Assembly (NCBI RefSeq): GCF_003351905.1
Contig: NZ_CP022339.1
Coordinates: forward strand, 750,001-782,000
Length of the DNA: 32,000 nt
Direction of reading: 5' to 3'
DNA from: Candidatus Saccharimonadota bacterium
Lineage (GTDB): Bacteria; Bacteroidota; Bacteroidia; Cytophagales; Amoebophilaceae
Shown here: in pieces, positions 10,688-11,096 of the stretch
Position numbering within the stretch: position 1 is the stretch's first letter
How the letters are laid out: each line of letters starts with the position of its first letter
The notes under the pieces: model-generated
The model's input: only the letters and a program-made list of their open reading frames with translations
What the model was told of the DNA's origin: nothing
Databases searched by the model: none
Made by a program: the position numbers and the translations under genes

Positions 10688-11096
10688 GTATCTGTTCAAG
10701 TCACTGATTTTTTGCATTAAAAGCAACAACGCCCCTGTAAAAAGTCGTGGTGTAGCAAGTGTTATCTGACAGATGATTAAGAAAAACAGTTTCCTTTGAA
10801 GCCCCCGAAGGGGGCGCTTTCTGTTTTTCCAGCTGTCAGATGCCACTTGCAGCGACTTTTTACCGAGGGCTTGATTTTTTGTCCACTTTTTTATCAAGAA
10901 AAAAGTGGAATAAAGTTCATTATGAACCAGTAACGTGAACAGATACTTGATTTTTTGCCCACTTTTTTATCAAGAAAAAAGTGGAATAAAATTCATTATG
11001 AACCAGTAATGTGGATAGATACTAAAATTCATTATTAATCAGTAACGTGAGCAGATGCAAAAAAAGTAGGATAAAAGTTCCTTATTGACCATTGTC
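10688..11096 (+). repeat. MITE-like structured repeat, copy B (best preserved): core 10688-10946 followed by 2-3 extra tandem tail modules
   Basis: Left end GTATCTGTTCAAGTCACTG (10688-10706) matches the inverted right end CAGTAACGTGAACAGATAC (10928-10946) at 17 of 19 positions. Further right ends lie at 11004-11022 and 11040-11058, and a degenerate module at 11059-11096. AT hairpins at 10883-10908 and 10959-10984 are 76 bp apart. Confidence 0.8.
10801..10828. terminator. GC-rich hairpin plus T-tract at the tip of repeat copy B (possible bidirectional intrinsic terminator)
   Basis: gccccc-gaa-gggggc (10801-10815) is followed by gctttctgttttt. On the opposite strand the same hairpin is followed by tttcaaaggaaactgttttt. 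It lies about 220 nt downstream of the E2 gene stop. Confidence 0.45.

What the first reader, a model, noticed from the sequence alone, without database searches (positions are those of the whole stretch)
10688..10946. Structured MITE-like repeat family with 19-bp terminal inverted repeats: four full copies in 32 kb, all in one orientation
Four units of about 250 bp (3365-3614, 10688-10946, about 16696-16959, 26272-26505) align along their length. The ends are inverted repeats: left GTATCTGTTCAAGTCACTG (10688), GTATCTATTCAATTCACTG (3365) and GTATCTGTTCCAGGCAATAG (26272); right CAGTAACGTGAACAGATAC (10928), CAGTAATGTGGATAGATAC (3596) and CAGTAACGTCAACAGATAT (16941). Between the ends, most of the unit folds into one long nested hairpin: the head ..gcccctgtaaaaagtcg..gcaagtg pairs with cacttgc..cgactttttaccgagggc, and an inner arm ctgacagatg..gaaaaacag pairs with ctgtttttc..ctgtcagatg. 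No transposase lies nearby. All four full copies and both solo left ends have the head on the plus strand and follow the 3' end of a plus-strand gene, although genes in the window use both strands. Such density and shared orientation are unusual for a non-autonomous element. They suggest either strand- or context-specific insertion, or a selected role such as terminator, RNA stabiliser or protein-binding site.
Basis: seen in the sequence. Interest (0 to 1): 0.7.

Follow-up and report, generated by a model that had tools for sequence, protein, structure and literature searches.

The report
Unnamed MITE family in Cardinium symbionts
The repeats are copies of a roughly 257-bp non-autonomous transposon (a MITE) that spread through the genomes of Cardinium, a bacterial symbiont of insects and mites; the family is real and apparently unnamed, but it is an ordinary kind of element, and the same-strand arrangement seen in this window is not a genome-wide rule.

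Summary
The window comes from Cardinium cSfur, the endosymbiont of the planthopper Sogatella furcifera. It holds four full and several partial copies of a strongly folding repeat of about 257 bp.

In the related strain cTPut, which is about 92-93% identical in orthologous DNA, I found 38 exact matches to the repeat's apex and 49 body modules in 274 kb. Both ends are sharp and conserved: GTAT[C/G]TGTTCA... on the left and ...TGAACAGATAC on the right. End-to-end length peaks at 255-258 bp.

A subset of copies keeps a perfect 8-bp target-site duplication. So does a diverged copy on a plasmid of a third strain, cDFar. The element is therefore a MITE.

It is not the published Cardinium MITECca01/02, which derive from an IS982-family element. 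Its ends also do not match Cardinium IS6 elements or an IS4-like element. No autonomous partner was found.

- Orientation in cTPut is 25 plus to 24 minus and is not clustered by contig.
- In tandem gene contexts, 10 copies are co-oriented and 5 anti-oriented, which is not significant.
- Copies at orthologous sites are no better conserved than other intergenic DNA.
- The hairpin shows essentially no compensatory covariation.

The one clear bias is in location. Copies favour gene 3' ends (15 convergent against 2 divergent intergenic regions), as is usual for bacterial MITEs.

Verdict: a new member of a known kind, of modest interest.

The parts
3317..3356 (+). End-only mini-element: a left-end-like motif (GTATCTGCTGACGTTATTG) followed directly by a right-end-like motif (...AGTAATGTGAACAGACAC). 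It overlaps the last 7 codons and the stop codon of alaS.
   Evidence: read directly from the sequence.
3365..3614 (+). MITE copy 1 (left end, body hairpin, tail module, right end). The apex hairpin is degenerate.
   Evidence: It is 87.5% identical to the cTPut consensus.
3615..3665 (+). Extra variant tail module (TTGATTTTTTGCTTACTTTTTTATCAAGAAAAAAGTAA...) appended after the right end of copy 1.
   Evidence: (family D3, pairs I7/I8).
10640..10659 (+). Solo end-like motif GTATCTATTCAGCTGTATGG. The roughly 40-bp segment that carries it (10640-10680) is inverted in cTPut.
   Evidence: Compared with the left flank of L028:3983.
10688..10946 (+). MITE copy 2, the unit reported in the finding. Left end 10688-10706, body hairpin 10707-10869, tail module with right end 10870-10946.
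   Evidence: An orthologous copy sits in cTPut (L037 17544-17800, 90% identity).
10947..11058 (+). Tandem repeat of the 76-nt tail module (10947-11022) plus a partial third copy (11023-11058). cTPut has one unit fewer here.
   Evidence: (family D3, spacing 76).
11756..11811 (+). Truncated copy: left end plus the first 57 nt or so, starting 8 nt after the rsmG stop codon. cTPut has a full copy at this site.
   Evidence: (L037 16558-16815).
13678..13746 (+). Second truncated left part, ending at the same internal point (...CCTGTAAAAAGCGATTA). It is preceded by a small palindromic module at about 13640-13673.
   Evidence: (family D5).
13874..13892 (+). Right-end-like motif (CACAGTGCTGCATAGATAC), 8 nt from the mtaB stop codon. 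It may be the partner of the 13678 left end.
   Evidence: The pairing is an inference.
16696..16959 (+). MITE copy 3. The left end is degenerate. It lies between ORF 15513-16562 and the Rpn-family gene.
   Evidence: An orthologous copy sits in cTPut (L037 13551-13804, 89% identity).
16960..17009 (+). Variant tail module appended after copy 3, ending 4 nt before the stop codon of the Rpn-family gene.
   Evidence: (pair I7).
26272..26505 (+). MITE copy 4: left end, body hairpin and variant tail, with no right end. It directly abuts the atpG stop codon at 26506-26508.
   Evidence: cTPut has MITE fragments next to an IS4-like element at the corresponding place.
17014..17901 (-). Context only, not shown to belong to the element: a PD-(D/E)XK 'Rpn family recombination-promoting nuclease / putative transposase' gene (PDDEXK_2) adjacent to copy 3.
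   Evidence: The adjacency is the same in cTPut. There is no end motif on its other side.

Best explanation
[quoted passage not shown] These are non-coding DNA transposons of about 257 bp with imperfect terminal inverted repeats of 19-22 bp. The left end is GTATCTGTTCAAGTCACTG, or the subfamily variant GTATGTGTTCAGCGCAGTG. The right end is CAGTA(A/T)CGTGAACAGATAC.

A transposase supplied in trans, most likely of the DDE type, bound the two ends. It excised or copied the element and inserted it with staggered cuts 8 bp apart, which left 8-bp target-site duplications. This mechanism is inferred from the anatomy; it was not observed.

The family amplified in Cardinium before the cSfur and cTPut lineages split. 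A diverged branch was active in cDFar, including on a plasmid. Most copies are now old. They sit where insertions do least harm, just past gene 3' ends.

After insertion, copies were reshaped by several processes:
- tandem duplication of the 76-nt tail module;
- truncation;
- nesting inside a second MITE built from the ends of an IS4-like element;
- small inversions.

The long internal hairpin is part of the element. It will form in any transcript that reads through a copy, but there is no sign that the host has recruited it.
For: **Copy number and spread.**
- The apex pattern has 38 exact matches in 36 stretches, all in Cardinium sp. TP, i.e. cTPut.
- There are 46 full body modules, and 49 of at least 85 nt. 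Their flanks are unrelated.

**Boundaries.**
- Sequence conservation stops exactly at GTAT... on the left and ...ATAC on the right.
- The distance from left end to right end peaks at 255-258 bp.

**Target-site duplication.**
- Of 41 canonical copies, 3 have perfect 8-bp direct repeats (0.05 expected), 5 match at 7 of 8 or better (0.2 expected), and 7 match at 6 of 8 or better (1.25 expected).
- Examples are TAAATGTT at L025:7531 and TCCTATTC at L031:142.
- The copy on cDFar plasmid p_A has a perfect TCAGTTTG.

**Not coding.** The best reading frame is open in only 8 of 41 copies.

**No known RNA family.** Rfam gives nothing at gathering thresholds and only chance-level hairpin hits at E up to 1.

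**Age.**
- Paralogues in cTPut average 85.5% identity (maximum 96%) and 90.8% to their consensus.
- Every site in the window that can be assessed is also occupied in cTPut.

**Subfamilies.** Variant left and right ends travel together, for example CTATTC with GAATAG. This is expected if whole elements are copied.

**Location.** In cTPut, 15 copies lie in convergent, 15 in tandem and 2 in divergent intergenic regions.

**Distribution.** A peptide translated from the element finds only cTPut and cSfur proteins among 5.8 billion. Diverged copies are present in the cDFar chromosome and plasmid.
Against: - No autonomous element with these ends was found.
  - There is no DDE transposase in the window.
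  - No pair of ends in the held cTPut DNA flanks a transposase gene.
  - The ends of Cardinium IS6 elements (GGCTCTGTCGCATCTGTA, GGTTCTGTCGCGTTTATT), the IS4-like element (CAATGGCGTCAACTTAAGG) and ISCca4/IS982 (ACCTAAGTTCGGGATTAGC) all differ from the MITE ends.
- Most copies (about 34 of 41) have no recognisable duplication.
- No filled-versus-empty site polymorphism was seen between cSfur and cTPut, so transposition is inferred and not observed.
- cDFar copies lie in the same relative place and orientation as cSfur copies 2 and 3. They are locally 77-81% identical, while 4-fold degenerate sites are only 54% identical. Simple neutral decay of orthologous insertions does not predict this. It needs lineage-specific re-insertion, gene conversion or selection.
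Confidence: 0.85

Rival explanations
1. The element is mainly a host-selected cis-acting module that happens to be repeated. It would act as a transcription terminator or RNA-stabilising 3' hairpin, or as a protein-binding site.
For: - Copies sit just after stop codons and favour convergent and tandem 3' regions (15 convergent, 15 tandem, 2 divergent).
- The apex hairpin GCCCCC-NNN-GGGGGC followed by GCTTTCTGTTTTT scores as terminator-like on the plus strand.
- Folding is extremely stable.
- cDFar has copies at similar gene junctions although neutral sites are near saturation.
Against: - Orientation relative to the upstream gene is not significantly biased (10 to 5 in tandem regions).
- Only one strand carries the T-tract, so anti-oriented copies would not terminate in the same way.
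- Orthologous copies are no better conserved than other intergenic DNA (86.6-90% against 89.2%).
- The covariation term is about zero, and the few double changes follow subfamilies.
- Copy 1 has lost the apex hairpin.
- Target-site duplications and sharp ends show how the copies got there.
Confidence: 0.1
2. The element is a derivative of the IS6/IS26 family. It would be mobilised by the abundant Cardinium IS6 element ISCca2, which also makes 8-bp duplications.
For: - The 8-bp duplication is the IS6 hallmark.
- The IS6 end consensus is GGTTCTGTTGCAAA (PMC6807381). The MITE end GTATCTGTTCAAGT shares 9 of 14 positions, including TCTGTT at the same offset. This comparison is my own alignment.
- IS6-family MITEs are listed in ISfinder (PMC6807381).
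- IS6 transposases exist in Cardinium, including cTPut.
Against: - The near-universal terminal GG is absent. The element starts GT, and the perfect duplications fix that boundary.
- The actual Cardinium IS6 ends share only TCTGT with the MITE: GGCTCTGTCGCATCTGTA on pCher, GGTTCTGTCGCGTTTATT in cTPut.
- No IS6 transposase was found in 340 kb of held cSfur and cTPut DNA (using the Tnp26 sequence recalled from memory).
- Other families also make 8-bp duplications (IS1595, IS66, IS256, ISL3). This last point is from general knowledge.
Confidence: 0.08
3. The element is a REP/REPIN-like hairpin repeat spread by a HUH-type (RAYT, IS200/IS605-like) enzyme, or by the PD-(D/E)XK 'Rpn / putative transposase' encoded next to copy 3.
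For: - The element is strongly palindromic on both strands.
- The Rpn-family gene abuts copy 3 in both cSfur and cTPut.
- The apex loop occurs as AAA and as its complement TTT in closely related copies, which suggests the hairpin forms in DNA.
Against: - The 8-bp duplications are not what HUH enzymes produce. That statement is from general knowledge.
- There is no end motif on the far side of the Rpn gene.
- The Rpn genes listed on plasmid pCher and in the 134 kb of the cDFar plasmids that I fetched show no nearby MITE ends.
- No Y1/RAYT family was hit among the window ORFs scanned.
Confidence: 0.03
4. The repeats are local or segmental duplications, not a mobile element.
For: - All copies in this window share one orientation and lie within 23 kb.
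- The tail module is tandemly duplicated (family D3).
Against: - At least 49 copies lie on 18 contigs of cTPut with unrelated flanks.
- Copies also occur on a cDFar plasmid and chromosome.
- Homology stops exactly at the ends.
Confidence: 0.01

Closest known systems
MITECca01 / MITECca02 of Cardinium cOegib (Halter et al. 2022, PMC9769881)
   Same: - Same host genus.
- Similar size (about 240 bp against about 257 bp).
- Non-coding, with terminal inverted repeats.
- Tens to hundreds of copies, mostly intergenic or inside other mobile elements.
   Different: - Unrelated sequence. MITECca01 has ends ACGTGAATTCGGGATT and a very AT-rich body derived from ISCca4 of the IS982 family. Those ends are absent from the window.
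- This family starts GTAT, carries a G+C-containing body hairpin of about 150 nt, makes 8-bp duplications (ISCca4: 6 bp, PMC7335449), and has no identified parent.
- MITECca01 was reported only from cOegib. This family is in cSfur, cTPut and cDFar.
Correia/NEMIS elements of Neisseria, ERIC/IRU of enterobacteria, RUP/BOX/SPRITE of Streptococcus pneumoniae (review PMC10969869)
   Same: - Small repeats that fold strongly and have defined ends.
- They accumulate in intergenic DNA near gene ends, nest within one another, and can be co-transcribed.
- SPRITE carries a terminator-like hairpin.
   Different: - No sequence relationship.
- Those families have documented effects on transcription or RNA processing. 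None is shown here.
- Correia elements make TA duplications, not 8 bp (from general knowledge).
IS6/IS26-family elements and their MITEs (PMC6807381)
   Same: An 8-bp target-site duplication, and a shared TCTGTT core at the same offset from the end.
   Different: - The ends start GT, not GG.
- Only 9 of 14 positions match the family consensus.
- The actual Cardinium IS6 ends differ.
Rickettsia palindromic elements (RPE) and Coxiella QMITEs (PMC10969869)
   Same: Palindromic repeat families that have proliferated in obligate intracellular bacteria with reduced genomes.
   Different: - RPEs often insert in frame within genes. Here the copies are intergenic and the best frame is open in only 8 of 41.
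- One end-only fragment does supply the last 7 codons of alaS.

Membership tests
Prokaryotic MITE (non-autonomous DNA transposon) | Short (under about 300-500 bp) and without a transposase gene | tested here: met
   Length is 255-258 bp. The best frame is open in only 8 of 41 copies, and no family was hit.
Prokaryotic MITE (non-autonomous DNA transposon) | Terminal inverted repeats that mark the conserved boundaries | tested here: met
   Homology among more than 40 copies stops at GTAT[C/G]TGTTCA... on the left and ...TGAACAGATAC on the right.
Prokaryotic MITE (non-autonomous DNA transposon) | Target-site duplication of fixed length | tested here: met
   The length is 8 bp. There are 3 perfect and 5 matching at 7 of 8 or better among 41 copies, against 0.05 and 0.2 expected. 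The cDFar plasmid copy has a perfect TCAGTTTG. Most copies have lost it.
Prokaryotic MITE (non-autonomous DNA transposon) | Many dispersed copies with unrelated flanks | tested here: met
   There are 38 exact apex matches and 49 body modules on 18 contigs of cTPut.
Prokaryotic MITE (non-autonomous DNA transposon) | A cognate autonomous IS with matching ends | tested here: inconclusive
   None was found in the window or in about 340 kb of cSfur and cTPut DNA, and no DDE transposase gene near a MITE end was seen in the fetched parts of the Cardinium plasmids (50 kb of pCher, all of cDFar p_A, 100 kb of p_B). The IS6, IS4-like and IS982 ends do not match. Whole genomes could not be scanned.
Prokaryotic MITE (non-autonomous DNA transposon) | Insertion polymorphism (filled versus empty sites) between relatives | tested here: inconclusive
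   All assessable window sites are also filled in cTPut. The alaS/trx and lon/mtaB junctions of the Nabis limbatus strain lack the element, but gene order differs there. No precise empty site was seen.
MITECca01/02 (ISCca4/IS982-derived) | Ends ACGTGAATTCGGGATT / ACCTGAGTTCGGGATT, with 'AC' termini and an AGMTTGTW sub-terminal motif | tested here: not met
   The published sequences are unrelated. There are 0 matches in the window at up to 3 mismatches. The element starts GT.
IS6/IS26-derived MITE | 14-bp ends close to GGTTCTGTTGCAAA with G1, G2 and G7 conserved | tested here: not met
   G1 and G7 are present and G2 is absent. Overall 9 of 14 positions match (own alignment against PMC6807381). 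Cardinium IS6 ends differ.
IS6/IS26-derived MITE | 8-bp target-site duplication | tested here: met
   This feature is shared with several other IS families.
REP/REPIN with RAYT | No target-site duplication; an associated Y1 (RAYT) gene flanked by the repeats | tested here: not met
   Duplications are present. No Y1 transposase was hit among the window ORFs scanned. Not searched genome-wide.
Intrinsic terminator module (SPRITE-like) | A G+C-rich stem followed by a T-tract, oriented with the upstream gene | tested here: inconclusive
   There is a terminator-like hit on the plus strand only. In tandem contexts, 10 copies are co-oriented and 5 anti-oriented.
Intrinsic terminator module (SPRITE-like) | Transcripts end at the element | not testable with these tools
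   No RNA data were available.

The most novel reading that the evidence does not exclude
Some copies may have been kept, or repeatedly re-acquired, at the same gene junctions across deeply diverged Cardinium lineages because the hairpin does something for the host, for instance acting as a terminator or insulator between convergent or tandem genes.

The evidence that leaves this open is that cDFar carries copies downstream of lon and upstream of rsmG, in the same place and orientation as cSfur copies 3 and 2. These are locally 77-81% identical, although 4-fold degenerate sites are only 54% identical. Copies within each genome also share lineage-specific substitutions.

Alternatively, the family may be moved by an unrecognised enzyme such as the abundant PD-(D/E)XK Rpn-type 'putative transposases', one of which abuts copy 3.
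Probability: 0.07. Interest if true: 0.6.

Novelty: new member of a known kind. Interest (0 to 1): 0.3.

Why it matters
For Cardinium genomics, this is a second MITE system, independent of MITECca01/02, and it is shared by at least three strains: cSfur, cTPut and cDFar.

Practical consequences:
- It generates spurious 'hypothetical protein' calls. Both database proteins that match it are such ORFs.
- It marks sites of rearrangement and of strain-specific gene gain or loss, as seen in the window at 11.8-13.8 kb.
- It should be masked or annotated in comparative work.

An 8-bp duplication with GTAT...ATAC ends and no matching IS in the DNA I could reach also points to a transposase that is either unrecognised or already lost. 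That is a small, tractable question.

The element does not open a new mechanism. The unusual-looking strand uniformity is explained by shared ancestry of a few local insertions.

Tried and rejected
1. **Known RNA family.** Rfam gave nothing at gathering thresholds and only sub-threshold generic hairpin hits at E up to 1.
2. **Identity with MITECca01/02.** I read the published sequences. They are unrelated, and their ends are absent from the window.
3. **IS6 parent.**
   - tblastn with the IS26 transposase, recalled from memory, found nothing in the held loci.
   - I recovered Cardinium IS6 copies from plasmid pCher and from cTPut. Their ends do not match.
4. **Autonomous copies.** I looked for pairs of ends 0.4-5 kb apart. 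The 957-bp and 1,003-bp pairs are chance matches inside mutS and dnaJ.
5. **IS4-like element of cTPut as parent.** Its ends (CAATGGCGTCAACTTAAGG) differ. They explain the outer shell of the 'variant' copies, not the MITE itself.
6. **Coding potential.** Rejected.
7. **Structural selection.** The RNAalifold covariation term is 0.15 kcal/mol, and only 8 of 59 pairs show any double change.
8. **Replication-strand bias.** There is no relation to local GC skew and no clustering by contig.
9. **Excess conservation of orthologous copies.** None.
10. **Fetching more cSfur DNA.** Look-ups of the window's AlaS and thioredoxin, and of the cSfur MITE-derived ORF, are not on record. Genome-wide counts for cSfur itself could therefore not be made.
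11. **Plasmid search with the unit.** It gave only one diverged hit, on cDFar p_A.
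Full report
**Source of the window.** Exact-sequence look-up of three window proteins (Lon, the PDH E2 subunit and the Rpn-family protein) returns AXI24388.1, AXI24383.1 and AXI24387.1. 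All are from the Cardinium endosymbiont of Sogatella furcifera (cSfur), whose chromosome is 1,103,593 bp. The window has 41.5% G+C. Its genes are alaS, trx, an ABC exporter, tilS, PDH E2, rsmG, mtaB, lon, rseP, an AddB-like gene and the atp operon.

**The observation.** All four units and all quoted end sequences are present at the stated coordinates.
- The 11-nt end core occurs 7 times in the window against 0.56 expected.
- The unit folds far better than shuffled controls on either strand: z = -10.8 and -13.4 as RNA, and -11.3 as DNA.

It has three parts:
- a 19-nt left end;
- a body hairpin of about 150 nt, whose apex is GCCCCC-NNN-GGGGGC;
- a 76-nt tail module with a small A/T hairpin (CCACTTTTTTATCAAGAAAAAAGTGG) and the right end.

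The tail is tandemly repeated after copy 2. A variant tail follows copies 1 and 3. Copy 4 has the variant tail and no right end (family D3).

**Genome-wide behaviour.** A scan of one genome per bacterial species with the 23-base apex pattern found 38 exact matches, all in Cardinium sp. TP. This is cTPut, the symbiont of the mite Tyrophagus putrescentiae (identity from PMC12039267).
- cTPut is 92-93% identical to the window in orthologous DNA.
- In the 274 kb retrieved there are 46 full body modules.
- In these copies, similarity stops exactly at GTAT[C/G]TGTTCA... on the left and ...TGAACAGATAC on the right, and the flanks beyond are unrelated.
- Left-to-right end distances pile up at 255-258 bp.
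- There are two left-end subfamilies, GTATCTGTTCAAGTCACTG and GTATGTGTTCAGCGCAGTG.

**Target-site duplication.** I compared the 8 bases on either side of 41 canonical copies.
- Three pairs are identical (0.05 expected from mismatched pairings).
- Five agree at 7 of 8 or better (0.2 expected).
- Seven agree at 6 of 8 or better (1.25 expected).
- Clean examples are TAAATGTT and TCCTATTC. Neither extends to 9 bp.
- A diverged copy (73% identical) on plasmid p_A of Cardinium from Dermatophagoides farinae (cDFar) is flanked by a perfect TCAGTTTG.

Sharp ends, a fixed-length duplication, small size and many dispersed copies are the defining anatomy of a MITE.

**Age and activity.**
- Paralogues in cTPut average 85.5% identity (maximum 96%) and 90.8% to their consensus.
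- Copy 2, copy 3 and the truncated copy after rsmG lie at the same sites in cTPut. The copy-4 site there holds MITE fragments beside an IS4-like insertion.
- No site is filled in one strain and empty in the other.

The main burst therefore predates the cSfur-cTPut split, and the copies are mostly relics.

**Is it a known family?** The only Cardinium MITEs in the literature I could search are MITECca01/02 of strain cOegib. They derive from ISCca4 of the IS982 family (PMC9769881).
- Their published sequences have ends ACGTGAATTCGGGATT and a very AT-rich body. They are unrelated to this element.
- Those ends are absent from the window.
- The cSfur genome paper considered only repeats of at least 500 bp (PMC6147030).
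- The cTPut paper uses 'MITE' for transposase fragments (PMC12039267).
- A 2025 review of Cardinium does not mention such elements.

Within what I could search, the family is undescribed.

**Partner transposase.** None was found.
- The window has no DDE transposase.
- IS6 was the obvious candidate. It makes 8-bp duplications, and its end consensus GGTTCTGTTGCAAA (PMC6807381) shares 9 of 14 positions with the MITE end.
- However, the MITE starts GT, not GG. The real Cardinium IS6 ends share only TCTGT with it: GGCTCTGTCGCATCTGTA on pCher and GGTTCTGTCGCGTTTATT in cTPut.
- An IS4-like element in cTPut has ends CAATGGCGTCAACTTAAGG. A miniature derivative of that element encloses a sub-lineage of the present MITE and has its own 10-bp duplication. 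This explains the 'variant' copies with ends ATATCTATTC... and ...GAATAGATAT.
- The PD-(D/E)XK Rpn-family gene next to copy 3 has no end motif on its other side. The Rpn genes listed on pCher and in the fetched parts of the cDFar plasmids are not associated with MITE ends.

**Orientation and position.** Using long ORFs as gene proxies in cTPut, copies fall into four contexts:
- 15 in convergent intergenic regions;
- 10 in tandem regions, co-oriented with the genes;
- 5 in tandem regions, anti-oriented;
- 2 in divergent regions.

Convergent and divergent contexts say nothing about orientation, because either orientation 'follows a 3' end'. The informative split of 10 to 5 is not significant.

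Other orientation tests are also negative:
- Overall orientation is 25 plus to 24 minus.
- Orientation is not clustered by contig. Summing the majority-orientation copies over contigs with at least 3 copies gives 22 of 31, against 20.9 expected (p = 0.34).
- It is unrelated to local GC skew.

The deficit in divergent, promoter-bearing regions is the usual signature of purifying selection against harmful insertions. The uniform orientation in the window reflects a handful of old insertions in one region. The orthologous cTPut contig shows the same pattern, with 6 of 7 copies in one orientation.

**Selection on the element.**
- Between cSfur and cTPut, 4-fold degenerate sites are 85.3% identical (n = 1,841).
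- Non-MITE intergenic DNA is 89.2% identical. MITE positions are 86.6% identical and 89-90% in unit-level alignments. There is no excess conservation.
- A consensus fold of 41 copies has a covariation term of 0.15 kcal/mol. Only 8 of 59 pairs show any double change, and these follow subfamilies.
- The best reading frame is open in only 8 of 41 copies.
- A terminator-like pattern is detected only on the plus strand.

A host function is therefore not supported, though individual copies could still act on transcripts.

**One loose end.** The cDFar chromosome has diverged copies just downstream of lon and just upstream of rsmG. These are the same relative places and orientations as cSfur copies 3 and 2.
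- Local identity is 77-81%, whereas 4-fold sites between the two genomes are only 54% identical.
- The cDFar copies share substitutions with each other and with the plasmid copy.

Separate lineage-specific bursts with re-insertion near old copies, or gene conversion, would explain this. Retention under constraint is not excluded. This is the basis of the 'novel case'.

**Verdict.** This is a genuine, well-bounded and apparently unnamed MITE family of Cardinium, about 257 bp long with 8-bp duplications and an unknown parent. It is a new member of a known kind.

Noticed in passing
window 6066-7838 (+); fragment at 25727-25792: A 590-aa gene with AAA-ATPase_like and PDDEXK_9 domains (the DUF1703 type). 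It is present in cSfur, but at the same place cTPut has only 61 nt. A 66-nt fragment of another copy, 82% identical, lies just after the AddB-like gene. The family behaves like a mobile or selfish gene. The cTPut paper also lists it as multi-copy.
   Followed up: partly
window 11812-13844 (ORF 12189-13589, +): A 466-aa ORF with weak HTH_37/HTH_3 matches and five tandem 132-bp (44-aa) repeats (family D1). The segment is absent from cTPut, which has 287 nt here including the rest of a full MITE. It is bracketed by two MITE left-end fragments truncated at the same internal position (...CCTGTAAAAAGC[T/G]ATTA). Similar 'left 55 nt only' fragments recur in cTPut.
   Followed up: partly
L037 3324-4737; L016 about 2795-3250 (cTPut): An IS4-like element (DDE_Tnp_1, 406 aa) with ends CAATGGCGTCAACTTAAGG. 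A miniature derivative made of its ends encloses a copy of the present MITE and is flanked by the 10-bp duplication TGAGACCGGT. This composite has itself been amplified (the L012:3604, L016, L020 and L003 types).
   Followed up: partly
alignment A1 columns 130-134 (window 10806-10808 in copy 2): The 3-nt loop of the apex hairpin occurs as AAA in about 20 copies, as its complement TTT in about 12, and as GAA in 3. Closely related copies differ: L033 has TTT and L015:179 has AAA, at 93% identity. This looks like repeated loop inversion by template switching within a DNA hairpin.
   Followed up: no
window 10640-10680 versus L028 about 4005-4045: The roughly 40-bp segment between the PDH E2 gene and copy 2 carries a solo end-like motif and is inverted between cSfur and cTPut. 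This explains the break in the alignment at 10651.
   Followed up: partly
window 3317-3340: The last 7 codons (VSADVIE) and the stop codon of alaS lie inside a MITE end-like motif. The C-terminus of this essential gene appears to have been remodelled by an element fragment. I did not compare it with AlaS from other strains.
   Followed up: no
window about 13640-13673; L027, L006, L021, L032 upstream of MITE copies: A further small palindromic module (AATGGACGCAATGGAAACAAACGCCCATTAAAAT) recurs immediately upstream of several MITE left ends in both strains. It may be another short repeat family or a preferred target.
   Followed up: no
L045 12523-12838 and 19317-19502; L041 17607-17868 (cDFar): The cDFar copies share lineage-specific substitutions with one another. 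They sit at the same gene junctions as cSfur copies 3 and 2, although neutral sites are near saturation (54% identity at 4-fold sites). This indicates separate bursts or concerted evolution. It remains unexplained.
   Followed up: partly
window 9284-9342: A 27-bp near-perfect inverted repeat (93% complementary, 5-nt loop) lies in the divergent tilS / PDH E2 intergenic region. It is unrelated to the MITE.
   Followed up: no
window 16314-16534: Short direct repeats with periods of 144-150 bp (families D7 and D9) lie inside ORF 15513-16562, an asparagine-rich repetitive protein with no family match.
   Followed up: no
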